From IMG/VR virus record IMGVR_UViG_3300050030_000093: a stretch of 37,875 bases of DNA; one strand, 5' to 3'. This DNA comes from an uncultured virus (IMG/VR IMGVR_UViG_3300050030_000093). Taxonomy: Duplodnaviria; Heunggongvirae; Uroviricota; Caudoviricetes. Made by a program: the position numbers and the translations under genes. The stretch's first letter is position 1, and each line of letters begins with the position of its first letter. Below are positions 452 to 37,794 of this stretch, in pieces. The notes below the pieces were generated by a model. It saw only the letters and a list, made by a program, of their open reading frames with translations, ran no database searches and was not told where the DNA came from.

Positions 452-474
452 AAATTTCCAACATGTCAAAGACC
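452..474 (-). promoter_or_regulatory. rrn boxA-like antitermination element before tRNA cluster 1
   Basis: Minus strand GGTCTTTGACATGTTGGAAATTT. 21 nt are identical to 29752-29772. Resembles rRNA-operon boxA (TGCTCTTTAACA / GTTCTTTGA) and is preceded by a long hairpin (476-530). Confidence 0.6.
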
Positions 475-548: not shown

Positions 549-577
549 AAAAAAACCCGAATCTTGCGAATCGGGTT
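549..577 (-). terminator. Intrinsic terminator/attenuator 1
   Basis: AACCCGATTC-GCAA-GATTCGGGTT followed by a U run; nearly identical to 13292-13319. Confidence 0.85.
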
Positions 578-603
578 CTTGGTTTATTAAAAACTTTTCA
601 GTT

Positions 604-735
604 TTATCTCATAAGAAAACCAGAACCCCCATCATCTCCATTATTTCTGCCTGTAAAGTCTGAACAGAATATAGAAATTCCGTTGCGACTTGAGGTCGAT
701 GTTATAATGGCTGATATGTGCCTGTACGTTTTCAT
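604..735 (-). CDS. Putative attenuator leader peptide 1 (43 aa, MKTYRHISAIITSTSSRNGISIFCSDFTGRNNGDDGGSGFLMR)
   Basis: Short ORF between promoter and terminator. Its 3' end GGGTTCTGGTTT (617-628) is complementary, with one bulge, to the terminator-overlapping AAACCAAGAACCC (573-585). Confidence 0.7.
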   Translation of the reverse strand: MKTYRHISAIITSTSSRNGISIFCSDFTGRNNGDDGGSGFLMR

Positions 736-775
736 TGTTTATTTATTATAAGTTCGTTTTCTATTAAATACTTGG

Positions 776-805
776 CAAAGTTAAATAAAGTTTCAATACC
801 ACCAA
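776..805 (-). promoter_or_regulatory. Bacteroidota sigma-A type promoter (-33 TTTG / -7 TAACTTTG)
   Basis: TTTG-N18-TAACTTTG matches the TTTG...TAnnTTTG consensus. Confidence 0.7.
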
Positions 806-827
806 ACATTTTTTCAATTATTTTCAT

Positions 828-12190: not shown

Positions 12191-12339
12191 TTCTCATAAT
12201 ACTTAAGCATAAAATTATTTTCACAAATATAATAATTCTTAAAGAATTATGCAAGACTATTTTTATTTAGACTAAATAAAAATAATAACTGGCTCAAAAT
12301 AAAAGACTTACTAAACATTATATTTGGTAAGTCTTCATG

Positions 12340-12412
12340 TGACCCCGGTGGAACTCGAATCCACAATCCTTACTTTAAGAGAGTACAGCTTCACCAATTA
12401 AGCTACGGAGTC
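12340..12412 (-). tRNA. tRNA-Lys(CTT)
   Basis: GACTCCG/CGGGGTC acceptor, loop CTCTTAA, TTCGAGT T loop, A73. Confidence 0.88.
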
Positions 12413-13048
12413 AATTTTACATATTTCTTCATATTCTTTTTTTAATCTGTGGCATCTTCCATAATTACCGCCTTTTGCTGCTAAACCAACGGTGATTAAA
12501 GATTGTCTCATGTTAAAATTATTCTCCAATAATACCTTAAATAATTCGTCATCATTAACTCTTCCTCGATTAATATTATTGCCCTTATTTCTTCCTCTCC
12601 ATGTTGGTGTTAATGAATGACAATTTGGACAGAGTGCTTCAAGATTTTTTCTTTCATTATTTGAATGATGACCATCAATATGTTCTATTTCAAGGATTAA
12701 TTTTTCTCCAAGCCATTCCGATAATTTACATCTGTTACATTTTCCATTTTGTTCTAATATTACTCTTTTTTTAATGGTGTCTTCACCCAAAGTATTATAA
12801 TCAGCATTTAATAATCTTTCTTTATAATAGGCATTTCTTTTATCTTGAATTTCTTTCCATTTTTCATTAGAATATGTATGAAACACTCCTATTCGTCCCA
12901 ATAATTTTTTACTTACCGCTTCATTAATTTCTTTTCTTTTTGCTTTAGTACTAAAACCATTTGCACAATTTTTTGAACAAAATTCACCACAACTATATTT
13001 GCTATATTTAACAGCTTCTTTAATTTTACAATATTTACATTTACTCAT
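12398..13048 (-). CDS. HNH endonuclease
   Basis: CNRC...LEIEHIDGHHSNNERKNLEALCPNCH; stop codon lies inside tRNA-Lys(CTT). Confidence 0.92.
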   Translation of the reverse strand: MSKCKYCKIKEAVKYSKYSCGEFCSKNCANGFSTKAKRKEINEAVSKKLLGRIGVFHTYSNEKWKEIQDKRNAYYKERLLNADYNTLGEDTIKKRVILEQNGKCNRCKLSEWLGEKLILEIEHIDGHHSNNERKNLEALCPNCHSLTPTWRGRNKGNNINRGRVNDDELFKVLLENNFNMRQSLITVGLAAKGGNYGRCHRLKKEYEEICKIDSVA

Positions 13049-13108
13049 AATTTGAACTATTTTTAATATAAATACTATCTACTTAAAAAATAGTTCAAAT
13101 GAAATTTG

Positions 13109-13191
13109 TGCGCCCGGTGGGATTCGAACCCACGTAGGTCAACTGACCCCGGATTAAAGGTCCGGTGCATAGCCAACTTTGCTACGAGCGC
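13109..13191 (-). tRNA. tRNA-Lys(TTT), atypical (C33, long variable arm)
   Basis: GCGCTCG/CGGGCGC, CCGGA-CCTTTAA-TCCGG, V-arm GGTCAGTTGACC, GTGGG-TTCGAAT-CCCAC. Confidence 0.8.
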
Positions 13192-13198
13192 AAATTTG

Positions 13199-13283
13199 TG
13201 AGGGTAGAGGGATTCGAACCCCCTGTGTTTCTTTGTTTCGGTTTTACAGACCGAAGTCACTCCACCACCGTGACCGTACCCAC
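13199..13283 (-). tRNA. tRNA-Tyr(GTA)
   Basis: TCGGT-CTGTAAA-ACCGA, long variable region, GTTCGAATC T loop; U2.U71 mismatch. Confidence 0.85.
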
Positions 13284-13291
13284 ATGAAAAC

Positions 13292-13319
13292 AAAAAACCC
13301 GAATCTTTCGAATCGGGTT
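13292..13319 (-). terminator. Intrinsic terminator/attenuator 2
   Basis: AACCCGATTC-GAAA-GATTCGGGTTTTTT, about 8 nt upstream of tRNA-Tyr. Confidence 0.85.
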
Positions 13320-13344
13320 CTTAATATCTTTAAAAGTATATCTA

Positions 13345-13440
13345 TTACATGCCTATACTTTTGGACACAGTATTCCCGATTCCTATAAAGTGCTTTTTAT
13401 AAGATTTTTTACCGTAATAATATGTACCAAATGTAATCAT
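13345..13440 (-). CDS. Putative attenuator leader peptide 2 (31 aa, MITFGTYYYGKKSYKKHFIGIGNTVSKSIGM)
   Basis: TAT TAT TAC GGT AAA AAA TCT TAT AAA AAG run; internal GAATCGGG (13375-13382) is complementary to terminator 5' arm CCCGATTC (13310-13317). Confidence 0.8.
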   Translation of the reverse strand: MITFGTYYYGKKSYKKHFIGIGNTVSKSIGM

Positions 13441-13479
13441 TGCTTTATTTTCTAATTGTTTGTTTTAAATATCAAGTGA

Positions 13480-13510
13480 CAAATGTAGTAATAAATACCG
13501 AACTTGCAAA
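13480..13510 (-). promoter_or_regulatory. Bacteroidota-type promoter (TTTG-N19-TACATTTG) with embedded GTATTTAT
   Basis: Consensus match upstream of leader 2. Confidence 0.65.
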
Positions 13511-13526
13511 TAAAATCGCAATTATT

Positions 13527-14048
13527 TTACACATTATTTTCAAGTACGGTTTCATAATAATTAATTAACTGTTGTTCAGTACTGAAATACAGCACGTTAG
13601 TGGGTGGAGTATAATTAACCATTTCTCTGCCTTTTATGACTAAACCATCATATCCAAGTCTTTGCATTTCATCTGCAATCGTTGTTTTGCTACTGAAAAA
13701 TTCATTACTTCTCGGCACACCATGCATTTTACAAAAATTAGTAACTACTTGTTGTAAAAAAATTTCTGCATCATTTGTAGTATACACTATTTTTGGTTTC
13801 TTTGGTATTGCATTAACAAGAAAATAAACCTTACCATATTGTTTTGCCAAATCTCTATTCCCTAAAAAGGCAGAATATAAACCTTGTCCATAACTTGCAA
13901 ATCCACCATTCTCCGCAGAATTATTATTATCACGTATACCTCTTATAGTTACGTTTTGTCGTTTCCACTTTAAATAATTGACATGATTATAGTCTTCAGT
14001 CACTACATTTGCAATTTCTTCTTTAATAATGTTAACAATACTTTTCAT
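13527..14048 (-). CDS. Hypothetical protein, possibly ADP-ribosyltransferase-like fold; IKEE N-terminal motif
   Basis: 173-aa ORF; RG...GQGLYS...LGYDGLV...E pattern is reminiscent of phage ART-like domains (weak). Confidence 0.55.
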   Translation of the reverse strand: MKSIVNIIKEEIANVVTEDYNHVNYLKWKRQNVTIRGIRDNNNSAENGGFASYGQGLYSAFLGNRDLAKQYGKVYFLVNAIPKKPKIVYTTNDAEIFLQQVVTNFCKMHGVPRSNEFFSSKTTIADEMQRLGYDGLVIKGREMVNYTPPTNVLYFSTEQQLINYYETVLENNV

Positions 14049-15844: not shown

Positions 15845-16924
15845 TTATTCGTCTTCAAAGCCGTCCTTAAATGGTTTGCTGTAGACTGGTCGAATCATCT
15901 TCCAGATTATTTCATCATATGGTCGTTTGTCATACATCTTAAACAATATTGCACTGTATTTTGTATTTAATGCTTCAATTGCAAATGTTCTACGGTCAGT
16001 ACCCTTTACAGGATAAATTTTACCATATTCCATCAATGCTTGAGATTCAATATCATTGAAATCCCCTTTTAACTTACGAACAGTTTTTTGTAACCAATCA
16101 TAGAATTCGTCTGGAACTCTATCGAGTAGTTCGTCAAAGTCGTTATTGTTTTTCAGATGTTCCCAAATAGTTAAATTTGAAACGTTTGTTACAATGGCAT
16201 GTAATCTGCAATATTCAGCAAATTTCATTTTTAAACGAAAACCATTAGCAAATCTTAAAACAACACCTTCTTTATTATCTTCTCCAATATTTATTAATTT
16301 TCTTAATTCATCAAATGATTTAAGTTCCAGTTTTTTTACAACTGTGAAATATTCAGAATATGTAGCAAGTACACTTTCGTATGGTAGTTCATAACCACTT
16401 AAAGTTTCTATTACTGCAAGCAACACAAGTTCCCTTCTGTTACCGTAATCAAGAACAATACGGTTTTCCGGATATAAAATTTCAAATAAATATGTCATTT
16501 GTTCCTCTAACTTATCATAAAGCGGAACATGGAGCATCTTTTGTGCTTCTAATGCCTGTTCAGAAATAAATGAACCTCTGGAAGCCACTATCCATTTCGA
16601 AACTGATTTGTAGTAAAACAATATAATAAGCGAGCCATCCATTTTTTCAAATGCATCGAAATCCATTGACCAATCAATTTCTGATGGAAGATATTCTTCG
16701 TAGTTTTTGAATTTTTGAAATGGACGTGCCAAGATATTACCTTCTGCATCCACAACCAAACCACGGCATGACAAAGTATATTCGTCCCAAGCCTTCATTG
16801 CTTGAACTCTTACCGAATAGTTAAGTATCCAGATATCATATTCTGGATGCTTATTTGCCATAATAAGTTTATTGTCGATGTATGTGTTCAACAATTTCCA
16901 ATCAACCTTTTCCAACATTTTCAT
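15845..16924 (-). CDS. RNA ligase, T4 Rnl1-like
   Basis: Motif I FEKMDGS, CRGLV, PFQKFKN, ASRGSF, FEILYPENRIV, EGVV, KMK. Confidence 0.88.
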   Translation of the reverse strand: MKMLEKVDWKLLNTYIDNKLIMANKHPEYDIWILNYSVRVQAMKAWDEYTLSCRGLVVDAEGNILARPFQKFKNYEEYLPSEIDWSMDFDAFEKMDGSLIILFYYKSVSKWIVASRGSFISEQALEAQKMLHVPLYDKLEEQMTYLFEILYPENRIVLDYGNRRELVLLAVIETLSGYELPYESVLATYSEYFTVVKKLELKSFDELRKLINIGEDNKEGVVLRFANGFRLKMKFAEYCRLHAIVTNVSNLTIWEHLKNNNDFDELLDRVPDEFYDWLQKTVRKLKGDFNDIESQALMEYGKIYPVKGTDRRTFAIEALNTKYSAILFKMYDKRPYDEIIWKMIRPVYSKPFKDGFEDE

Positions 16925-21710: not shown

Positions 21711-21817
21711 TAGCGAAGATGGGAGTCGAACCCACACGGACATTACTGCCCACGGGATTTGATTTGCTCTATTCGAAGCACTAAGTCCAGCGTGTCTACC
21801 AATTCCACCACTACGCC
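21711..21817 (-). tRNA. tRNA-Leu-type gene with 21-nt insertion in the anticodon loop (intron-containing or pseudogene)
   Basis: GGCGTAG TG GTGGAATTGGTAGACAC G CTGGA CTTAG[23 nt]TCCCG, long V-arm, GTGGG-TTCGACT-CCCAT, A73. Confidence 0.7.
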
Positions 21818-21818
21818 A

Positions 21819-22283
21819 TTATTTTTTATTTGTTGCATTTTTTCCTCTGTGTGTTTCTGTTTGACTATGACAATTTGGACACAACATTTTTAAGTTCGAC
21901 AACAAATGATTGGTTCTATCTCCATCAACGTGGTCTAATTCCATTTCCAATTTCTTTCTATGCCACTTATTTTTTTGTCCACATTCTTCACATTCATTTT
22001 TTTTATAACCTTCACCGACTAATCTGTTTTTTAATTTAAATGTTTGATATTCTGGATGTTTACCTTCAAATATTATTTCTTCAATTGGTATTATTTTTGA
22101 GGGTCTTTTTCTTGTACCCTTTCCCGATTGATTTGTTTTATAACAATTTAAAATTATTGCTCTTCGTTTAAAACTATTGAAATGTATTTTTAATTTTGCA
22201 GCAGCTTGCGCCATGCTTGTTGATGATTTGCATACACTAATAAAATATTTATCATTTATTCTATCTTTAATTTGTTTTGGCAT
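21819..22283 (-). CDS. HNH endonuclease
   Basis: CEECG...MELDHVDGDRTNHLLSNLKMLCPNCH. Confidence 0.92.
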   Translation of the reverse strand: MPKQIKDRINDKYFISVCKSSTSMAQAAAKLKIHFNSFKRRAIILNCYKTNQSGKGTRKRPSKIIPIEEIIFEGKHPEYQTFKLKNRLVGEGYKKNECEECGQKNKWHRKKLEMELDHVDGDRTNHLLSNLKMLCPNCHSQTETHRGKNATNKK

Positions 22284-25102: not shown

Positions 25103-25147
25103 TATTTTATTATAAATACTGTGGAAGTGCGGAAAAGTTTGTGGAAG

Positions 25148-25497
25148 TGGAGCAGAAGGGAGTTGAACCCTTGTCCAGTCATGCGACTAATACGTTTTCT
25201 ACAAGTTTATCTGAATTTTCTAATTCAGCGAAATATCTGATGTTTGCGGAACATCAACAATCCGTCTTGTCTTTTGCTTCCTTAAGCCGGAAGGTTCTTT
25301 GCTGAGTTTTTTGTTTCCTTATGCTGCGATTGCGAGTTCAGCGTTTCTTGCGAATACTGCATTACCTCTCGTAAGAGAAGTTGGAATAGACATTATGTCT
25401 TCTGCGTTTGTTGTTTTGAACCTTTTTAACGTAGTCTGATTCAACTACCACTTGCTTACTATACCACTCTGCCACGCTGTCAAAACCAGGCTGCCCC
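25148..25497 (-). ncRNA. ssrA: tmRNA
   Basis: GGGGCAG/CTGCTCC-A acceptor with G3.U70, TTTTGAC, GGGTTCAACTCCC T arm; internal tag ORF 25319-25405 AEDIMSIPTSLTRGNAVFARNAELAIAA*. Confidence 0.93.
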
Positions 25498-27293: not shown

Positions 27294-27365
27294 CACGTCT
27301 GGAAGTAATCGAAACCTCATCCACGGGTTTGGGAGCCGTTATCTTAGCCATTAGACGACAGACGT
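27294..27365 (-). tRNA. tRNA-Trp(CCA), atypical (C33, C31.C39 mismatch)
   Basis: ACGTCTG/CAGACGT, G73, ACGGC-TCCCAAA-CCCGT; a Gly(CCC) register is possible but fits worse. Confidence 0.7.
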
Positions 27366-27374
27366 ATTTTATTG

Positions 27375-27447
27375 CACACCGGGAGAGGCTCGAACTCCCG
27401 ACCTTTGCTTTTGGAGAGCACTATTCTACCAACTGAACTACCGATGT
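27375..27447 (-). tRNA. tRNA-Trp(CCA)
   Basis: ACATCGG/CCGGTGT, G73, loop CTCCAAA. Confidence 0.9.
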
Positions 27448-28158
27448 GTTAATTTGTTTTTCATAGAATTTAAGCCATTTACGTATTGTATTATCCGAAA
27501 CGCCATATTTTTTTCCTGTTGCAGTATATCCACCAGAAAAAGTAATATTATTAATTAGTTCACCATATGTTGGTCGTGATTTAACCTTACGTAAATTTTC
27601 ATGATGGCATTTTTGACATTTAGTACTATTATTTTTTATCTGAGCACCACATGAACAATAATTAATGTTTTCATGTTTTTTATATTTTTTCTTATCAACA
27701 TTTTTTCCACAATATGTGGATGTCTGTGAATGACAATTTGGACACAACACTTTTAAATTTTCTAAACGATAATCATTATTAATGCCATTAATGTGGTCTA
27801 AATGCAGACTTAATTTTTCTCCAAACCAAATTTCACTCTGACCACATTTTTCACACTTTCTTTCTTTTAATCCAAATTCAAACAATTTTAGTTTTAATCT
27901 ATGTGTATTAGTATATGTGGAATTAACAACTAAGAATTTTTTAATAAATTCTTCTTTGCTGTATTTTTGATGCAGTTTTTTATTTTTATTCCATCCCATT
28001 CCCAAAAAATGCGATGTATCAATATTATATTCATTGAATTTTTTTAATATTGTTTTATAGTTTCCACCTGCAGGTTTCAATTTAAGTAATTTAAGCACAT
28101 TAGCAATTGAATTACTTTCTTTTACAAATCGTGTTAAAACTTCTTTATTATATTTCAT
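27421..28158 (-). CDS. HNH endonuclease with C-terminal HTH
   Basis: CEKCG...LHLDHINGINNDYRLENLKVLCPNCH; GKKYGVSDNTIRKW; stop inside tRNA-Trp. Confidence 0.92.
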   Translation of the reverse strand: MKYNKEVLTRFVKESNSIANVLKLLKLKPAGGNYKTILKKFNEYNIDTSHFLGMGWNKNKKLHQKYSKEEFIKKFLVVNSTYTNTHRLKLKLFEFGLKERKCEKCGQSEIWFGEKLSLHLDHINGINNDYRLENLKVLCPNCHSQTSTYCGKNVDKKKYKKHENINYCSCGAQIKNNSTKCQKCHHENLRKVKSRPTYGELINNITFSGGYTATGKKYGVSDNTIRKWLKFYEKQINTSVVQLVE

Positions 28159-28332: not shown

Positions 28333-28409
28333 AGTTGTCCTTATTCACGAACCATGACTTCGTGCCTAAGTGTTTGGAACTATTTGCTTCGTTATCCAAA
28401 ATAAGGTCG

Positions 28410-28484
28410 TGCAGATGGCGGGACTCGAACCCATAATCCCCACCGTGAAAGGGTGATGTCCTGAACCAATTAGACGATGGGAAA
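28410..28484 (-). pseudogene. Chimeric pseudo-tRNA-Glu(TTC)
   Basis: Good Glu D and anticodon arms (TCACC-CTTTCAC-GGTGG), but the acceptor strands TTTCCCA / CATCTGC do not pair. Confidence 0.7.
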
Positions 28485-28489
28485 GTTTG

Positions 28490-28561
28490 TACTCGGTGCG
28501 GTAGTCGAAACCGCATTCATAGATTGAGAGTCTATTTTCCTTACCGTTAGAAGAACCGAGC
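28490..28561 (-). tRNA. tRNA-Glu(CTC)
   Basis: GCTCGGT/ACCGAGT, ATAGA-CTCTCAA-TCTAT. Confidence 0.9.
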
Positions 28562-28692: not shown

Positions 28693-28695
28693 GCG

Positions 28696-28776
28696 TACAG
28701 CGTGGGGGATTCGAACCCCCGAACCTTTCGGGACAGATTGAAGGTCTGCCTACTTTAGCCGTTTGTATAACGCTGC
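28696..28776 (-). tRNA. tRNA-Glu(TTC), atypical (C33, long variable arm)
   Basis: GCAGCGT/ACGCTGT, GCAGA-CCTTCAA-TCTGT, V-arm CC-GAAA-GG, GGGGG-TTCGAAT-CCCCC. Confidence 0.78.
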
Positions 28777-28888: not shown

Positions 28889-28963
28889 CACTCCCGGAGG
28901 TATTCGAAACCTCTATTTTACATGGGTGACAGCCAAGTTCTTCACCAAGAAGCCTACGAGAGT
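28889..28963 (-). tRNA. tRNA-Asp(GTC)
   Basis: ACTCTCG/CGGGAGT, G73, loop CTGTCAC. Confidence 0.83.
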
Positions 28964-29592
28964 ATTGTATGTTTATTATAAAATTTAATCCATTTTCTTA
29001 TTGCATTGTCACTTACACCATATTTTTTTCCAGTTCCAGTAAATCCCAATTCTTTTATTTCATTTTGAAGTTGTTCGAATGATGGACGTTTAACTTTACG
29101 TTGAATAACAGATTGTTCTAAACGTGTAATTTTCTTTTTTTTATTTCGTTTTACATTTTTTCCACTAAATGTTGGTAAGGTTGCGTTACAATTAGGACAA
29201 ACAATTCTCAAATTTTCAAGTCTATGGTCATTATTTATCCCATTAATATGGTCAAGAATTAAACTCATGTGTTCACCATGCCAATTTTCATCTTGTCCAC
29301 ATAACTCACATTTACGTTCTTTTATTCCTTCATCATACAATCTTTCTTTTAAATTTGTCGTATTGTATGTTGAGCCAGATATTAATATTTTTGATAGTGG
29401 TGTTTTAATAAATTTATTTGAACGAACATTTCCGTTATTTGTTCCGAAATGTGATATATCAATATTATGTTGATTAATATATTTTTTTATTGTTATTCTA
29501 TTACCGTATAATTTATTACCATATAATTTAAAGCATGTTTCGGTAGTGCTATTTGATTCTGCAATAATTGCTTTTAATTTATCTATGTCCAT
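28954..29592 (-). CDS. HNH endonuclease with C-terminal HTH
   Basis: CELCG...LILDHINGINNDHRLENLRIVCPNCN; start placed at MDIDK after GTATTTAT; stop inside tRNA-Asp. Confidence 0.92.
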   Translation of the reverse strand: MDIDKLKAIIAESNSTTETCFKLYGNKLYGNRITIKKYINQHNIDISHFGTNNGNVRSNKFIKTPLSKILISGSTYNTTNLKERLYDEGIKERKCELCGQDENWHGEHMSLILDHINGINNDHRLENLRIVCPNCNATLPTFSGKNVKRNKKKKITRLEQSVIQRKVKRPSFEQLQNEIKELGFTGTGKKYGVSDNAIRKWIKFYNKHTILS

Positions 29593-29664
29593 AGCAAAGT
29601 GTTTTATATAAATACGTGATAGTTCGGCAAAGATAAACAATAATTATCATATAATCAAACATTG

Positions 29665-29751
29665 CGGTCCCAATGGGATTCGAACCCACCTGTCGGTATT
29701 ATCCGTTCCGGAGTGACAGTCCGGCAGCCACGCCAAGCAGCTCCTGAGACC
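29665..29751 (-). tRNA. tRNA-Asp(GTC), atypical (long variable arm)
   Basis: GGTCTCA/TGGGACC, G73, CCGGA-CTGTCAC-TCCGG, ~18-nt variable region with CGG/CCG stem. Confidence 0.8.
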
Positions 29752-29774
29752 AAATTTCCAACATGTCAAAGAAC
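29752..29774 (-). promoter_or_regulatory. rrn boxA-like element before tRNA cluster 3
   Basis: GTTCTTTGACATGTTGGAAATTT, repeated at 452-474; preceded by a TTGGACAA/TTGTCTAA stem. Confidence 0.6.
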
Positions 29775-29946: not shown

Positions 29947-29979
29947 AAAAAACCCGACCATTTTGCGACAGTCGGGTTT
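29947..29979 (-). terminator. Intrinsic terminator/attenuator 3
   Basis: AAACCCGACTGT-CGCAA-AATGGTCGGGTTTTTT. Confidence 0.85.
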
Positions 29980-30014
29980 CTTTATTAAAGAAAGGAGGTT
30001 GTAATATCAAAGTA

Positions 30015-30107
30015 TTACCCGACTGTACATAGCTTATCCTCTTCGGCTGCCCATAATAGGACATCCACCATGAGGACTGCCATCAATATGTCGAATAATT
30101 TTTTCAT
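30015..30107 (-). CDS. Putative attenuator leader peptide 3 (30 aa, MKKLFDILMAVLMVDVLLWAAEEDKLCTVG)
   Basis: 3' end ACAGTCGGGT (30017-30026) is perfectly complementary to terminator 5' arm ACCCGACTGT (29968-29977). Confidence 0.75.
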   Translation of the reverse strand: MKKLFDILMAVLMVDVLLWAAEEDKLCTVG

Positions 30108-30152
30108 TGTTGTTTCTTTTAAATTTGTTGTTTCTTTCATTTAAATACTTGG

Positions 30153-30182
30153 CAAAGATAGTAAAGTTTTCTTAATTCCAAA
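30153..30182 (-). promoter_or_regulatory. Bacteroidota-type promoter (TTTG-N18-TATCTTTG)
   Basis: Consensus match; downstream CTTTGCCAAGTATTTAA is identical to the locus 1 promoter. Confidence 0.7.
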
Positions 30183-30212
30183 TATTTTTGCAATTATTTT
30201 TTAAAATTATTT

Positions 30213-35131: not shown

Positions 35132-36352
35132 ATGAAAGATTCTGCTAAAATACTTCTATTGGATAACTCTGAAATCCAAGCAGAGTTGATTTCTAATTTA
35201 TTGAAAAACAACGAATATACCACAGATATATTAATTGCAAGCGATAGAAAATCCTTCATTTCTATATTAGAAAACAATAAGATTGATGTGATGATATGTA
35301 GTCATGTTTTACCTGAAGGATTTAATTCTTTGGAAGCATTTAGGCTTGCAAAAAGCACATATCCAGACATTTTGTGTATTCTGCTTTCAGGTACAATTAA
35401 TGATGAATTTGCTATTGAGATACTTAAAGAAGGATTTGATGATTATGTCAATAATGACCATTTATCTTTTTTACCGTTTTCAATTGAAAATGCGTATTTA
35501 AAAAATCTGTATAGGGATGAAGTGGCTAATTTGGAAAATGTGAACAAAGAATTAGAAAGGTCATATAAGATAATTGAAGAAGAAAAGAAGACCATAACCC
35601 AAAGCATTATATTTGCGGCAAGAATACAAGCACTAACACTCCCAAAAATTGATTTCTTATTAAAAAATTTTAGTGAAGCATTTGTATTTTATAAACCCAA
35701 AGATATTGTTAGTGGTGATTTTTATTGGTTTGCCGAAAAAAATGGCAATATTATTGTTGTTGTTGCTGATTGTACGGGACATGGTGTGTCTGGTGCGCTA
35801 TTAGCAATGCTTGGCAGTAATTTCTTAAATGAGATTTTGGCAGATGAAACTTGTACCAATAATCCTACAGACATATTAACCAGGCTTGATGCGCATATTT
35901 GTAAAGTATTAAATCAGTCATCCGGTGATGGATATCAAGATGGAATTGATTTAGCATTGATATCAATTAATAAAACCGAAAAGAAAATATATTACTGTGG
36001 ATGCCAGAGGTCATTATTATATTTGATGAAGGGCGAGAAAAAGATTACCACATATAAAGGTAATCCATATTTAGTTGGCGGTGTAGATTATAGAATTGAA
36101 AAAATATTCCCTACACAAGAAATTAAATATGAAACTGATGATGTGATTTACATGTATAGTGATGGTTATGTTGACCAATTTGGCGGGAAAGAAAATAAAA
36201 AGTTATTAAAAGATAATTTCTTCACGTTATTAAATTCTTTTCAGCATCTTGGATTGGAATATCAGTGTCAATTACTCGAACAAAGATTATTAAGATGGAA
36301 AGGCACTAACGACCAAACTGATGACATATTAGTGCTTGGTATTAAACTTTAA
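35132..36352 (+). CDS. Receiver-like domain + PP2C/SpoIIE (RsbU-like) Ser/Thr phosphatase
   Basis: VSGDFY, VADCTGHGVSGA, YSDGYVDQFGG, DQTDDILVLG; N-terminal REC fold. Confidence 0.9.
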   Translation: MKDSAKILLLDNSEIQAELISNLLKNNEYTTDILIASDRKSFISILENNKIDVMICSHVLPEGFNSLEAFRLAKSTYPDILCILLSGTINDEFAIEILKEGFDDYVNNDHLSFLPFSIENAYLKNLYRDEVANLENVNKELERSYKIIEEEKKTITQSIIFAARIQALTLPKIDFLLKNFSEAFVFYKPKDIVSGDFYWFAEKNGNIIVVVADCTGHGVSGALLAMLGSNFLNEILADETCTNNPTDILTRLDAHICKVLNQSSGDGYQDGIDLALISINKTEKKIYYCGCQRSLLYLMKGEKKITTYKGNPYLVGGVDYRIEKIFPTQEIKYETDDVIYMYSDGYVDQFGGKENKKLLKDNFFTLLNSFQHLGLEYQCQLLEQRLLRWKGTNDQTDDILVLGIKL

Positions 36353-36795
36353 ATACGCTTATTTGTAGATAAGATAAAAATATCTCCCGATTGGTCTATA
36401 TTATAAACCTTAAAATAGGTTTCGAATAATGACTTAATGTTCATACTTCCTGCAGGATTCATTGAATGAATCAAAATATCTGCAGGAAGTTTTTTATTGT
36501 TGTCAATACAATAGTCAATAAGCCACTTGGCACAATGGTATCCGGTCTTTTCGTCAAACATGTCGTAGATTTGTTCATACGATTCAGTACCAACAATTTT
36601 TGGGTCATAATGTTCATCAGCAAGGTCGTGGTCGAAACTAATAATATCCGGAATACCTTTACCTTCAATTATCTGTACAAAGGCATAGTAATTCCTGACG
36701 ATGGACCAATCGACTGAAATATAAATTGGAAGTTTCATGTAGTCGAAGGTATCCTTCGGCATCCGAACATCGTCTAAGAATAAGTTGTATCCCAT
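36349..36795 (-). CDS. Cyclic-phosphate-processing receiver-domain protein
   Basis: LFLDDVR, ISFDHDL, TGYHCAKWL, IHSMNPAG signature. Confidence 0.8.
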   Translation of the reverse strand: MGYNLFLDDVRMPKDTFDYMKLPIYISVDWSIVRNYYAFVQIIEGKGIPDIISFDHDLADEHYDPKIVGTESYEQIYDMFDEKTGYHCAKWLIDYCIDNNKKLPADILIHSMNPAGSMNIKSLFETYFKVYNIDQSGDIFILSTNKRI

Positions 36796-37663: not shown

Positions 37664-37711
37664 ATGTTTTGCAAAGATAATAATAAATACGACAATTCAA
37701 AGAACATTTAG

Positions 37712-37794
37712 TAGTCCCTGTAAGATTCGAACTTACAAACCCGTTGGGGTGTCAGCTTCAAAGACTGATGCAATGACCATTCTGCCAAAGGACT
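37712..37794 (-). tRNA. tRNA-Gln(TTG), atypical (long variable arm)
   Basis: AGTCCTT/AGGGACT, TCAGT-CTTTGAA-GCTGA, V-arm ACCC-CAAC-GGGT. Confidence 0.8.

What the first reader, a model, noticed from the sequence alone, without database searches (positions are those of the whole stretch)
13109..13510. Leader-peptide attenuator (YYYGKKSYKK) gating a Tyr/Lys/Lys tRNA cluster: candidate phage sensor of tRNA depletion
Seen on the minus strand, in order: host-type promoter (13480-13510); a 31-aa ORF whose codons 7-16 are TAT TAT TAC GGT AAA AAA TCT TAT AAA AAG; an intrinsic terminator (13292-13319); then tRNA-Tyr(GTA), tRNA-Lys(TTT), HNH and tRNA-Lys(CTT). About 10 nt after the Lys run, the ORF contains GAATCGGG, exactly complementary to the terminator 5' arm CCCGATTC. 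An internal AAAAGTATA/TATACTTTT stem extends this alternative hairpin. Established: this is the geometry of trp/his/pheST-type ribosome-mediated attenuation. tRNA-Lys(UUU) and tRNA-Tyr are known targets of anti-phage nucleases (PrrC, PARIS AriB, retron Ec78 PtuAB), and phage tRNAs can rescue them. Inference: stalling on Tyr/Lys codons frees the antiterminator and induces exactly the tRNAs that are missing. I do not know of leader-peptide attenuation being described for phage tRNA genes.
Basis: partly seen in the sequence, partly recalled or inferred. Interest (0 to 1): 0.96.

Follow-up and report, generated by a model that had tools for sequence, protein, structure and literature searches.

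The report
Lys/Tyr leader switch before phage tRNAs
A large uncultured phage places a tiny reading frame full of tyrosine and lysine codons, wired to a switchable transcription stop, directly in front of its tyrosine and lysine tRNA genes, so it probably makes these tRNAs only when ribosomes read those codons slowly, a control known for amino-acid genes but not found in print for tRNA genes.

Summary
On the minus strand lie a Bacteroidota-type promoter, a 31-codon ORF (YYYGKKSYKK at codons 7-16), GAATCGGG, the terminator CCCGATTC-GAAA-GATTCGGG-U6, then tRNA-Tyr 14 nt after the stem.

The unit is a conserved family. I found 39 distinct leader sequences in 87 fetched loci. All have the ATG in the same place, a 26-31 codon ORF and 6-10 Tyr/Lys codons within codons 5-17. 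GAATCGGG and CCCGATTC are nearly invariant, even in three variants where a 1-nt deletion changes the reading frame across GAATCGGG.

Downstream tRNAs are almost only Lys and Tyr:
- 85 of 86
- 124 of 126 in a partly overlapping set found without using the terminator

Array order and copy number vary freely. A leader hairpin that buries GAATCGGG is supported by covariation.

Best reading (confidence about 0.7): a ribosome-mediated attenuator that senses decoding of Tyr/Lys codons. No expression data exist. Equilibrium folding alone does not give a clean switch. The link to anti-phage tRNA nucleases is untested.

Two more units in the window (Ser/Thr/Ile/Asn/Cys; Asp/Glu/Leu/Trp) look analogous.

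Six literature searches found no published case for tRNA genes. This scan has noted the same class before on other DNA (e1-5897573, e1-6035932 and others).

The parts
13480..13510 (-). Promoter of Bacteroidota type: -33 TTTG (13510-13507), 19-nt spacer containing CGTATTTAT, -7 TACATTTG (13487-13480)
   Evidence: Sequence and motif scan. Both boxes and CGTATTTAT are conserved in the 31-sequence alignment. The consensus itself is recalled knowledge. The transcription start is not mapped.
13441..13474 (-). A-rich, poorly conserved 5' untranslated leader ahead of the invariant ATG
   Evidence: The 20 nt before the ATG are on average 66% A (range 50-75%) and 9% G in 30 sequences. Column entropy is 1.19 bits here against 0 at the ATG.
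13345..13440 (-). Leader ORF, 31 codons plus stop: MITFGTYYYGKKSYKKHFIGIGNTVSKSIGM
   Evidence: An ORF of 26-31 codons from the same ATG is present in all 39 distinct leader versions.
13393..13422 (-). Regulatory codon run, codons 7-16: Tyr Tyr Tyr Gly Lys Lys Ser Tyr Lys Lys
   Evidence: Across 38 distinct peptides, codons 5-17 hold 3-5 Tyr and 2-5 Lys, at least 6 together.
13356..13435 (-). Leader hairpin P1 (pairing of regions 1 and 2). The apical stem UCUUAUAAA/UUUAUAGGA is at 13404-13396 with 13389-13381. The lower stems pair the Tyr/Gly codons with AUCG of GAAUCGGG and beyond.
   Evidence: Minimum-energy folds. In 30 sequences, 89.8% of cells are paired against 35-48% when partners are slid. 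Covarying pairs: columns 75-82 (GC 20, AU 9) and 43-108 (GC 15, AU 7).
13375..13382 (-). GAATCGGG, the proposed antiterminator strand (region 2). It is a perfect 8-bp complement of the terminator 5' arm.
   Evidence: It is exact in 38 of 39 distinct leaders. It stays conserved as nucleotides in three variants where a 1-nt deletion shifts the reading frame across it.
13332..13362 (-). Hairpin P2 (AAAAGUAUA/UAUACUUUU) enclosing the stop codon UAA (13347-13345). It lies inside the loop closed by the alternative helix.
   Evidence: Relatives have a hairpin at the same place with different sequence. I read this by eye from the alignment and did not count it formally.
13287..13319 (-). Intrinsic terminator: 5' arm CCCGATTC 13317-13310 (region 3), loop GAAA, 3' arm GATTCGGG 13305-13298 (region 4), then U6-G-U4
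   Evidence: -11.9 kcal/mol. The arms are invariant in 30 aligned sequences. One variant has a compensatory A-U to G-C change that still allows a G-U pair with GAATCGGG (L150/L163).
13198..13283 (-). tRNA-Tyr(GTA), starting 14 nt after the terminator stem with no room for a promoter
   Evidence: ARAGORN; distance
13108..13191 (-). tRNA-Lys(TTT), 84 nt, with a long variable arm
   Evidence: ARAGORN; Rfam tRNA at 57.2 bits
12398..13048 (-). HNH-like homing endonuclease ORF inserted in the array
   Evidence: ORF. DNA similarity to annotated HNH endonucleases of large phages. Paralogous ORFs in the window hit PF01844. This ORF itself has no Pfam hit at E<=0.001.
12339..12412 (-). tRNA-Lys(CTT), last gene of the array
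   Evidence: ARAGORN; Rfam tRNA at 58.1 bits

Best explanation
This is a ribosome-mediated (leader-peptide) transcription attenuator that gates a tRNA-Tyr/tRNA-Lys operon of a large uncultured phage.

Proposed steps (all inferred):
1. Host RNA polymerase starts at the Bacteroidota-type promoter and a ribosome starts on the leader ORF.
2. If Tyr and Lys codons are read quickly, the ribosome runs through GAAUCGGG to the stop codon. The leader hairpin P1 re-forms behind it and buries GAAUCGGG. The terminator CCCGAUUC/GAUUCGGG-U6 then forms and transcription ends before tRNA-Tyr.
3. If charged tRNA-Tyr or tRNA-Lys is scarce, the ribosome stalls in the run YYYGKKSYKK. That keeps the 5' strand of P1 covered and leaves GAAUCGGG free. 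GAAUCGGG pairs with CCCGAUUC as soon as that arm is made, the terminator cannot form, and the polymerase reads into the tRNA genes.

The product relieves the stall, so the loop is homeostatic.

Shown here: the parts, their conservation, their exclusive link to Lys/Tyr tRNA genes, and the covariation of P1. Inferred: translation, stalling, antitermination and the physiological trigger.
For: **The parts are real and unlikely by chance**.

**The unit is a conserved family.**
- blastn of the leader against fetched loci gave 41 loci and 31 distinct versions at 66-100% identity.
- A second search used only the leader core and not the terminator. It gave 37 viral loci.
- Together these are 39 distinct leaders in 87 loci.

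**The reading frame is kept.**
- The ATG is invariant after a variable, A-rich 5' region.
- The ORF is 26-31 codons in 39 of 39 leaders.
- Deletions inside the codon run are 3 or 6 nt.

**The codon load is kept while exact positions change.**
- YYYGKK becomes SYYGYK, YYLYK or YYKRYY.
- Always 3-5 Tyr and 2-5 Lys remain in codons 5-17.

**GAATCGGG is conserved as RNA, not as codons.** Three variants (L030, L021, L155) read it in another frame.

**The arms behave as if under a three-way constraint.**
- GAATCGGG with CCCGATTC occurs in 37 of 39 leaders.
- One variant changed the terminator pair A-U to G-C and still keeps a G-U pair with GAATCGGG.

**Target specificity.**
- 85 of 86 same-strand tRNAs behind 30 distinct leaders are Lys or Tyr.
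- Four arrays extended to 2.5 kb stay Lys/Tyr only, one of them with 7 genes.
- 124 of 126 are Lys or Tyr in the core-pattern set.
- Order and copy number differ widely between arrays.
- In 13 of 30 leaders the first tRNA starts within 21 nt of the stem. Only 1 of 30 spacers holds a TAnnTTTG box.

**P1 is supported by covariation**.

**Folding agrees in direction.**
- Without a ribosome, the terminator probability is at least 0.98 in 30 of 31 leaders.
- With the A site on Lys codon 11, the antiterminator probability is at least 0.5 in 16 of 31.
- In the window the terminator's advantage falls from 8.7 to 1.7-2.0 kcal/mol.
- A ribosome with its A site on codons 19-26 masks GAAUCGGG in 31 of 31.

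**Sister units exist.**
- Unit A (Ser/Thr/Ile/Asn/Cys leader ahead of Thr/Cys/Asn/Ile/Ser tRNAs) has, in 7 of 7 variants, an 8-12 bp upstream complement to the terminator flank and arm. The sequence of that complement covaries. At most 9 of 300 shuffles do as well.
- Unit C (DVLLWAAEEDKL ahead of Asp/Glu/Leu/Trp tRNAs) has CAGTCGGG opposite CCCGACTG.
Against: - There are no expression data of any kind.
- Equilibrium folding does not give a clean switch.
  - In transcripts cut at the end of the terminator 5' arm, the antiterminator forms without any ribosome in 18 of 31 leaders (median probability 0.88; window 0.97). The off state therefore needs kinetic trapping by P1, which I did not test.
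  - With the full terminator present and a ribosome on the Tyr/Lys codons, the window's antiterminator probability is only 0.08-0.26.
- The alternative helix is invariant, so no covariation proves it in this family. The one variant with a changed GAATCGGG (L116, GAATCAGG) gains an A-C mismatch, not a compensation.
- Third-codon-position variability is only weakly higher: 0.64 against 0.41 and 0.48 bits, permutation p = 0.11.
- The peptide is conserved beyond Tyr and Lys (F4, G10, S13, I-G-N), which could mean a working peptide.
- In 17 of 30 leaders the first tRNA lies 31-395 nt after the stem. Eight of these have a repeat-filled spacer of 128-158 nt that might carry a promoter of a type I cannot recognise.
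- A side prediction failed. Arg CGT codons in the run of L040 and L029 are not matched by an Arg tRNA within 2.5 kb.
Confidence: 0.7

Rival explanations
1. The unit is an independent small gene with its own promoter and terminator. It would encode either a 30-residue basic Tyr/Lys-rich peptide or a structured RNA of about 180 nt. It sits next to the Lys/Tyr tRNA genes only through inherited gene order, and the tRNAs are made by leaky read-through or from other promoters.
For: - The peptide is conserved beyond Tyr and Lys (M.TFGTYYYGKKSYKK.L.RIGN.MS).
- The RNA is strongly structured (z = -4.67) and its hairpin covaries.
- Attenuator RNAs and leader peptides can have trans functions. This is stated in the abstracts of PMC6614838 and PMC7968998, seen only in the search listings.
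- 17 of 30 leaders have a spacer of 31-395 nt before the first tRNA.
Against: - Three frame-shifted variants keep the nucleotides GAATCGGG but change the C-terminal half of the peptide.
- Synonymous positions in the run are nearly invariant, which points to RNA or codon identity and not to the protein.
- Inherited gene order does not explain why arrays that differ in order and in number (1-7 genes) hold Lys and Tyr almost exclusively (85 of 86; 124 of 126).
- It also does not explain why two unrelated leaders in the same genome match their own arrays.
- In the window and in 12 other leaders no room exists for a promoter before the first tRNA.
Confidence: 0.15
2. The unit is a ribosome-independent RNA switch or processing signal. 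The leader hairpin, GAAUCGGG and the terminator would respond to a protein or to a tRNA binding the RNA directly, or would mark a processing site for the tRNA precursor. The open frame would be incidental.
For: - Nucleotide-level conservation and covariation of P1.
- Invariance of GAATCGGG and of both terminator arms, which would also fit a sequence-specific binding site.
- Weak codon periodicity.
Against: - The ATG is invariant next to a variable 5' region.
- The frame is open for 26-31 codons in 39 of 39 versions, including three frame-shifted ones.
- Deletions within the run are in frame.
- Substitutions swap Lys and Tyr codons for each other, such as AAA to TAT, which needs two changes.
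- No Rfam family matches, T-box included, at gathering level or at E up to 10 apart from weak terminator-driven hits.
Confidence: 0.1
3. The resemblance to an attenuator is a chance product of an AT-rich genome, where Lys and Tyr codons are common.
For: The window is 32% G+C. Lys plus Tyr make up 14.4% of the residues in the long ORFs.
Against: - Only 1 of 43,213 windows reaches the observed Tyr/Lys load.
- The whole unit is conserved in 39 versions.
- It has an exclusive association with Lys/Tyr tRNA genes.
Confidence: 0.01

Closest known systems
Leader-peptide transcription attenuators of enterobacterial amino-acid operons (trpL, hisL, pheL, leuL), including the multivalent thr and ilvGMEDA leaders
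   Same: All share a short translated leader with a cluster of regulatory codons, an intrinsic terminator, a mutually exclusive antiterminator helix and an upstream hairpin that hides the antiterminator strand. Two amino acids are sensed by one leader, as in the thr and ilv leaders. These features of the known systems are recalled textbook knowledge. Only the pheL abstract was seen, in the listing (PMC3082878).
   Different: - The genes controlled are tRNA genes, not biosynthetic enzymes, so the product directly supplies the sensed molecule.
- The setting is a phage with Bacteroidota-type promoters and no Shine-Dalgarno sequence.
- The ORF is long (26-31 codons) and runs through the antiterminator strand. 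Its stop codon lies in a separate hairpin about 25 nt further on.
- No sequence or Rfam relation exists.
pheST attenuator (pheM leader) of E. coli
   Same: It is a leader-peptide attenuator that controls a component of the translation apparatus and not a biosynthetic pathway (recalled knowledge).
   Different: It controls an aminoacyl-tRNA synthetase, which is a protein, and not the tRNA itself. There is no sequence relation.
T-box riboswitches
   Same: Both are transcription attenuation that responds to the state of a specific tRNA.
   Different: T-boxes bind uncharged tRNA directly, without a ribosome, and turn genes on in Firmicutes (recalled knowledge). Here there is no T-box match in Rfam, and an open frame is conserved instead of a specifier loop.
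Phage tRNAs as counter-defence (T5 tRNA-Lys(UUU) against PARIS AriB; T5 tRNA-Tyr against retron 78/PtuAB; Septu cleaving tRNA-Tyr)
   Same: The same two tRNA species, Lys(UUU) and Tyr, are supplied by the phage. Sources: PMC12409363, abstract read; 10.1101/2023.03.15.532788, PMC11555353, PMC11464382 and PMC13096335, abstract beginnings in the listing.
   Different: In what I read of those works (the abstract of PMC12409363 and the opening lines of the other four abstracts), nothing is said about conditional control of the phage tRNA genes. Here the arrays sit behind a sensor. Whether the sensor responds to nuclease damage is untested.
Earlier notes of this scan on other DNA (e1-5897573, e1-6035932, e1-2978539, e1-5901704, e1-6065301, e1-5710378, e1-5863229)
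   Same: They describe codon-matched leader ORFs with a terminator in front of phage tRNA arrays. Two are Lys/Tyr leaders of about 30 codons, one of them next to an RNA ligase.
   Different: These are unpublished AI notes on other windows and are not independent evidence. I did not see their sequences, so I cannot say whether they belong to the same sequence family as this leader.

Membership tests
Leader-peptide (ribosome-mediated) transcription attenuators | Short ORF with a start codon in the 5' leader of the transcript | tested here: met
   The ATG is invariant and the ORF is 26-31 codons in 39 of 39 distinct leaders. The region before the ATG is A-rich. Translation itself was not tested.
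Leader-peptide (ribosome-mediated) transcription attenuators | Cluster of regulatory codons cognate to what the operon supplies | tested here: met
   The window has 8 Tyr/Lys codons in 10 (1 of 43,213 windows). All 38 peptides have 6-10 in codons 5-17. Downstream tRNAs are Lys or Tyr in 85 of 86 and 124 of 126 cases.
Leader-peptide (ribosome-mediated) transcription attenuators | Intrinsic terminator between the leader ORF and the regulated genes | tested here: met
   The hairpin is -11.9 kcal/mol and is followed by U6GU4. It is present in all 39 leaders; L155 was read by eye after a regex miss.
Leader-peptide (ribosome-mediated) transcription attenuators | Antiterminator helix that shares a strand with the terminator | tested here: met
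   GAATCGGG pairs with CCCGATTC over 8 perfect bp (-11.7 kcal/mol) in 37 of 39 leaders. One more keeps 8 bp with a G-U pair, and one has a mismatch. Because the helix is invariant there is no covariation in this family. The sister unit A does covary.
Leader-peptide (ribosome-mediated) transcription attenuators | Upstream pairing (regions 1 and 2) that overlaps the regulatory codons and hides the antiterminator strand when no ribosome stalls | tested here: inconclusive
   P1 exists and covaries and it pairs AUCG of GAAUCGGG. At equilibrium, however, the antiterminator still wins in truncated transcripts of 18 of 31 leaders. The off state would need kinetic trapping.
Leader-peptide (ribosome-mediated) transcription attenuators | Read-through rises when ribosomes stall on the regulatory codons | not testable with these tools
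   No RNA data exist and no cultured host is known. The only match in genome contigs is a 362,763-nt contig filed as a MAG.
Leader-peptide (ribosome-mediated) transcription attenuators | Regulated genes encode amino-acid biosynthesis enzymes or aminoacyl-tRNA synthetases, as in all described members I know (recalled) | tested here: not met
   The regulated genes are tRNA genes. This is the point of novelty, not a flaw in the mechanism.
T-box riboswitch (Rfam RF00230) | Match to the T-box covariance model (specifier loop, T-box bulge) | tested here: not met
   There is no match at gathering level in the window. There is none up to E = 10 in 13200-13560.
Any Rfam leader or sRNA family | Match to a curated covariance model | tested here: not met
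   Only hits far below threshold appear (13-21 bits against gathering scores of 40-90). They are centred on the terminator.

The most novel reading that the evidence does not exclude
Large phages of this clade may run their tRNA genes as codon-matched, demand-sensing regulons. Each array sits behind its own leader peptide written in the codons that the array decodes. This window holds three such units: Tyr/Lys; Ser/Thr/Ile/Asn/Cys; Asp/Glu/Leu/Trp. On this reading the phage measures decoding speed codon by codon and replaces exactly those tRNAs that host tRNA-cleaving immunity (PrrC, PARIS or retron/Septu type) or codon-usage mismatch has made limiting. That would be a damage-inducible counter-defence, working beside the T4-type RNA ligase encoded 2.4 kb upstream.
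Probability: 0.3. Interest if true: 0.95.

Novelty: new variant of a known kind. Interest (0 to 1): 0.86.

Why it matters
Phage tRNA genes are usually discussed as constitutive helpers for codon usage or as decoys against tRNA-cleaving defences.

If this reading holds, it has several consequences:
- A conserved ribosome-based sensor in front of them would mean phages regulate tRNA supply by measuring decoding itself.
- It would explain why arrays in large phages are sorted by amino acid.
- It would give a sequence signature (a leader written in the array's codons, with a terminator and antiterminator) for finding such units.
- It would make the idea of inducible tRNA replacement directly testable with reporter fusions.
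- It would extend classical attenuation to a case where the regulated product is the sensed molecule, and to hosts without Shine-Dalgarno-led translation.

Tried and rejected
- **Own assembly.** It is not held, so I used the nearest record G001 and loci of relatives.
- **Peptide homologues.** A homology search with the 31-residue peptide was not possible because the query is below the 40-residue minimum. I dropped it.
- **Public phage records.** The 'phages' collection holds no relative of the leader. Only the HNH ORF matched, at 68-77% over at most 10% of the query.
- **Sequencing runs.** No RNA holder is listed. The 24 rows are DNA runs, so I did not use read laying.
- **Rfam.** Nothing at gathering level and nothing meaningful at E up to 10.
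- **Simple terminator scan.** It misses this hairpin because of its internal mismatch.
- **Arg side test.** I asked whether Arg CGT codons in the run predict an Arg tRNA in the array. L116 has both. L040 and L029 have the codon but no Arg tRNA within 2.5 kb. No claim is made.
- **Codon-position periodicity.** It is not significant as a test of coding (p = 0.11).
- **Unit A codon enrichment in this window alone.** It is not significant after allowing for the number of windows (8 of 12, null 451 of 39,306; whole ORF p = 0.11). Its support comes from relatives.
- **Literature.** Six searches found no paper on leader-peptide control of tRNA genes.
  - Searches were aimed at that question.
  - concerned retron/PtuAB and tRNA-Tyr.
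  - The library lacks most subscription journals, so absence from print is not proven.
- **Technical repeats.** One row (L054) was mis-indexed by my script, so its peptide is taken.
Full report
**What is there.**
Read on the minus strand, the region holds the following, in order:
- a promoter with the two boxes typical of Bacteroidota (consensus recalled): TTTG at 13510-13507, a 19-nt spacer, TACATTTG at 13487-13480;
- an A-rich untranslated stretch;
- an ATG at 13440 opening a 31-codon ORF, MITFGTYYYGKKSYKKHFIGIGNTVSKSIGM;
- GAATCGGG at 13382-13375;
- a small hairpin around the stop codon (13362-13332);
- the terminator AACCCGATTC-GAAA-GATTCGGG-TTTTTTGTTTT (13319-13287).

tRNA-Tyr(GTA) starts at 13283. 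It is followed by tRNA-Lys(TTT), an HNH-like ORF and tRNA-Lys(CTT).

The promoter is one of only seven two-box matches on the gene-carrying strand of the 37.9-kb window.

**Is it more than chance?**
- The window is 32% G+C, so Lys and Tyr codons are common. Even so, the run at codons 7-16 is the only one of 43,213 stop-free 10-codon windows in all six frames with at least eight Tyr/Lys codons.
- As a 12-codon window it is matched by 4 of 39,306.
- GAATCGGG occurs three times on both strands against 0.47 expected. Two of the three are just the complements of terminator arms.
- The leader folds far better than shuffles: -42.4 against -25.9 +/- 3.5 kcal/mol, z = -4.67, 0 of 200 shuffles as good.

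**Relatives.**
- The public phage collection holds nothing similar except for the HNH ORF.
- Relatives of the 173-residue protein encoded just upstream were found in viral contigs (5 loci) and in metagenome contigs (79 loci).
- A scan for the terminator sequence gave 33 viral loci.
- blastn of the 237-nt leader against all these loci found the whole unit, promoter to terminator, in 41 loci. That makes 31 distinct versions at 66-100% identity.
- The terminator scan biases that set towards an invariant terminator. I therefore repeated the search with a pattern from the leader core only, which gave 37 viral loci.
- Together there are 39 distinct leader sequences and 38 distinct peptides in 87 fetched loci.
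- The one match in the genome collection is a 362,763-nt contig filed as a Candidatus Paceibacterota MAG. A contig of the same length is in IMG/VR as a virus (L174). No cultured host is in sight.

**What is conserved.**
- The 5' untranslated part varies freely (1.19 bits per column) up to an invariant ATG. It is 66% A on average.
- From that ATG every version has an open frame of 26-31 codons.
- Deletions inside the codon run are 3 or 6 nt.
- The Tyr/Lys load is kept while positions move: YYYGKKSYKK, YYFGKKSYKK, SYYGYKSYKK, YYLYKSYKK, YYKRYYKK. Codons 5-17 always hold 3-5 Tyr and 2-5 Lys, at least six together.
- Some changes replace a Lys codon by a Tyr codon (AAA to TAT), which needs two substitutions.
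- GAATCGGG is exact in 38 of 39 versions and CCCGATTC in 37 of 39.
- In three variants (L030, L021, L155) a 1-nt deletion just before GAATCGGG shifts the frame. The peptide then reads MESG instead of MRIG, yet the eight nucleotides are unchanged and the frame still closes after 29-31 codons. So this block is conserved as RNA and not as protein.
- One variant (L150/L163) changed a terminator pair from A-U to G-C. The changed 5'-arm base can still pair with GAATCGGG as G-U. That is what a strand with two alternative partners would tolerate.
- The opposite case also exists. L116 has GAATCAGG, which adds an A-C mismatch.

**What lies behind the leader.**
- ARAGORN on the downstream DNA of the 31 versions found tRNAs in 30. 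L057 has only 350 nt left.
- There are 86 same-strand genes: 44 Lys(TTT), 29 Tyr(GTA), 12 Lys(CTT) and one Arg(GCG).
- Four arrays extended to 2.5 kb stay Lys/Tyr only. One of them has seven genes.
- In the core-pattern set, 124 of 126 are Lys or Tyr; the exceptions are one Val and one Leu. The two sets overlap.
- Order and number differ widely (Tyr-Lys; Lys-Lys-Tyr-Lys-Lys-Tyr; Tyr-Lys-Tyr-Lys-Lys and so on). The arrays have been rebuilt repeatedly while staying Lys/Tyr.
- In 13 of 30 versions, the window among them, the first tRNA begins within 21 nt of the terminator stem. The tRNAs there can only be made by read-through.
- Only 1 of 30 spacers holds a TAnnTTTG box.
- Eight versions have a 128-158-nt spacer built of five to seven repeats of RTGAAAAAC. 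Its role is unknown and it is absent from the window.

**RNA structure.**
- The minimum-energy fold pairs most of the ORF into one long hairpin, P1 (13435-13356). Its apical stem is UCUUAUAAA/UUUAUAGGA. Its middle pairs CGGU of the Tyr-Gly codons with AUCG of GAAUCGGG.
- On 30 aligned sequences, 89.8% of cells are paired against 35-48% when partners are slid. Two pairs covary clearly: GC 20 with AU 9, and GC 15 with AU 7. The terminator never varies.
- RNAalifold on its own recovers only the apical stem and the terminator.

**Folding with a ribosome mask.**

| Condition | Result |
|---|---|
| Full leader, no ribosome | terminator probability at least 0.98 in 30 of 31 versions |
| Full leader, 27 nt masked, A site on Lys codon 11 | antiterminator probability at least 0.5 in 16 of 31; window only 0.08-0.26 |
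| Window, no ribosome | terminated form wins by 8.7 kcal/mol (-35.2 against -26.5) |
| Window, ribosome on Tyr/Lys codons | terminated form wins by only 1.7-2.0 kcal/mol |
| Transcript cut at end of terminator 5' arm, no ribosome | alternative helix already forms in 18 of 31 (median 0.88) |
| Same transcript, A site on codons 6-10 | alternative helix forms in 31 of 31 |
| Same transcript, A site on codons 19-26 | alternative helix forms in 0 of 31, because GAAUCGGG is covered |

The geometry fits attenuation. The off state cannot be explained by equilibrium alone. It needs P1, which is made first, to act as a kinetic trap, or the running ribosome to cover GAAUCGGG at the decisive moment. I could not test either.

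**Other units in the window.**

Two more of the seven promoters drive a small ORF followed by a terminator in front of tRNA genes.

Unit C:
- Its ORF is 30140-30015, MKETTNLKETTMKKLFDILMAVLMVDVLLWAAEEDKLCTVG.
- The stretch DVLLWAAEEDKL uses TTA, TGG, GAA, GAG and GAT codons. The array behind it is Asp, Asp, Glu(TTC), Glu(CTC), Leu(TAA), Trp and Trp.
- 8 of 12 codons match, against a null of 61 of 39,306.
- Its last codons hold CAGTCGGG, the complement of the terminator arm CCCGACTG.
- A relative at 81% identity keeps both features and has tRNA-Asp about 50 nt after the terminator stem.

Unit A:
- Its ORF is 735-604.
- The ORF is rich in Ser, Thr, Ile, Asn and Cys. It precedes tRNA-Cys, followed in the nearest record by Asn, Ile and Ser.
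- In this window alone the enrichment is not significant.
- Five distinct peptides of the family are all Ser/Thr/Ile/Asn/Cys-rich.
- Their arrays hold Thr, Cys, Asn, Ile and Ser; one also has Gly and one tRNA of unclear anticodon. None holds Lys or Tyr.
- In 7 of 7 variants an upstream segment pairs over 8-12 bp with the terminator flank and arm, at -12.0 to -16.9 kcal/mol against about -8 for shuffles. At most 9 of 300 shuffles do as well.
- The paired sequences differ between variants (GGGGUUCUGGUUU with AAACCAAGAACCC; GGGUUUUUGUUU with AGACAAAAACCC). This is the covariation that the invariant Lys/Tyr unit cannot show.

Three unrelated leaders, each matching its own array, are hard to explain by inherited gene order.

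**Context.**
- A T4 Rnl1-type RNA ligase is encoded at 15848-16924 (PF09511, E = 1e-19). In T4 this enzyme repairs tRNA-Lys cut by PrrC (recalled knowledge).
- A cyclic-phosphate-processing receiver domain protein (PF20274) lies at 36352-36795.
- A phage tmRNA lies at 25147-25497.
- Host nucleases that cut tRNA-Lys(UUU) or tRNA-Tyr, and rescue by phage tRNAs, are in print:
  - PMC12409363, abstract read;
  - 10.1101/2023.03.15.532788, PMC11555353, PMC11464382 and PMC13096335, beginnings of abstracts in the listing.
- This makes the defence reading attractive. Nothing here tests it. Plain matching of supply to the demand of an AT-rich genome explains the data equally well.

**Novelty.**
- Six full-text searches returned no paper describing leader-peptide control of tRNA genes. 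Searches were aimed at that question. One search concerned retron/PtuAB and tRNA-Tyr. I read only the listings.
- The library lacks most subscription journals.
- Notes of this scan describe the same kind of unit on other DNA, two of them Lys/Tyr leaders. They are unchecked AI notes and not independent evidence.
- The mechanism is classical. The target and the setting are new.

**Verdict.**
- The attenuator reading is well supported by comparative evidence (confidence about 0.7).
- The link to defence is open.

Noticed in passing
window 550-810 (minus strand): Unit A consists of a promoter (-7 box TAACTTTG starting at 783), a 43-codon ORF at 735-604 rich in Ser/Thr/Ile/Asn/Cys, and a terminator at 578-550 whose 20-nt core differs by one loop base from that of the Lys/Tyr unit. 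tRNA-Cys follows at 450-379. Relatives carry Thr, Cys, Asn, Ile and Ser tRNAs behind it, and they have a covarying 8-12 bp antiterminator-like complement.
   Followed up: partly
window 29947-30190 (minus strand): Unit C consists of a promoter (-7 box starting at 30160) and a 41-codon ORF at 30140-30015. The ORF contains DVLLWAAEEDKL, and its last codons contain CAGTCGGG, complementary to the terminator arm CCCGACTG (terminator 29982-29947). It lies upstream of Asp, Asp, Glu, Glu, Leu, Trp and Trp tRNAs. The peptide also looks like a small membrane helix, so a protein role is not excluded.
   Followed up: partly
window 452-472 and 29752-29772 (minus strand); also L127 and L035: An identical 21-nt motif, TCTTTGACATGTTGGAAATTT, abuts the 5' end of the first tRNA of two arrays (Cys and Asp). 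It recurs in relatives. It could be a processing signal or an unrecognised promoter type.
   Followed up: no
window 13108-13191; also 28695-28776, 29664-29751, 37711-37794: Some tRNAs are unusually long. tRNA-Lys(UUU) is 84 nt with a stem-forming variable arm and an anticodon loop that reads CCUUUAA, so C stands where U33 is expected. Glu(UUC) is 82 nt, Asp(GUC) 88 nt and Gln(UUG) 84 nt, each beside a normal-length isoacceptor in the window. Such changes might affect recognition by tRNA nucleases.
   Followed up: no
window 15848-16924, 36352-36795, 25147-25497: A T4 Rnl1-type RNA ligase (PF09511) lies 2.4 kb upstream of the Lys/Tyr unit. The same window also encodes a cREC_REC cyclic-phosphate-processing receiver domain protein and a phage tmRNA with a 28-residue tag.
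   Followed up: partly
relatives L003, L043, L065, L051, L041, L039, L014, L046 (between terminator and first tRNA): A conserved 128-158-nt spacer is made of five to seven copies of RTGAAAAAC at a period of about 22 nt. It is absent from the window. It could be a set of protein-binding sites or tandem promoters of an unknown type.
   Followed up: partly
window 27294-27365, 21711-21817, 28403-28495 (minus strand): Three tRNA-like stretches that ARAGORN does not call:
- A second tRNA-Trp(CCA), found by Rfam only.
- A 107-nt tRNA match, possibly interrupted.
- A tRNA-Glu-like stretch with anticodon loop CUUUCAC whose acceptor arms do not pair.
   Followed up: no
window 12398-13048, 21819-22283, 27421-28158, 28954-29640: Four paralogous HNH endonuclease ORFs are interspersed among the tRNA genes. 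One paper in the listing (PMC13096335) reports that a homing endonuclease amplifies anti-defence loci. That may bear on the variable copy number of the Lys/Tyr genes.
   Followed up: no
L142 (genome contigs) and L174 (viral contigs): A 362,763-nt contig that carries the leader is filed as a Candidatus Paceibacterota MAG in the genome collection. A contig of the same length is filed as a virus in IMG/VR. This is probably a large phage binned into a bacterial MAG.
   Followed up: no
window 13491-13499 and 37689-37697 region (minus strand): CGTATTTAT is conserved in the promoter spacer of the Lys/Tyr unit across relatives. It recurs in the promoter in front of tRNA-Gln (-7 box starting at 37679). 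It may mark a promoter subclass.
   Followed up: no
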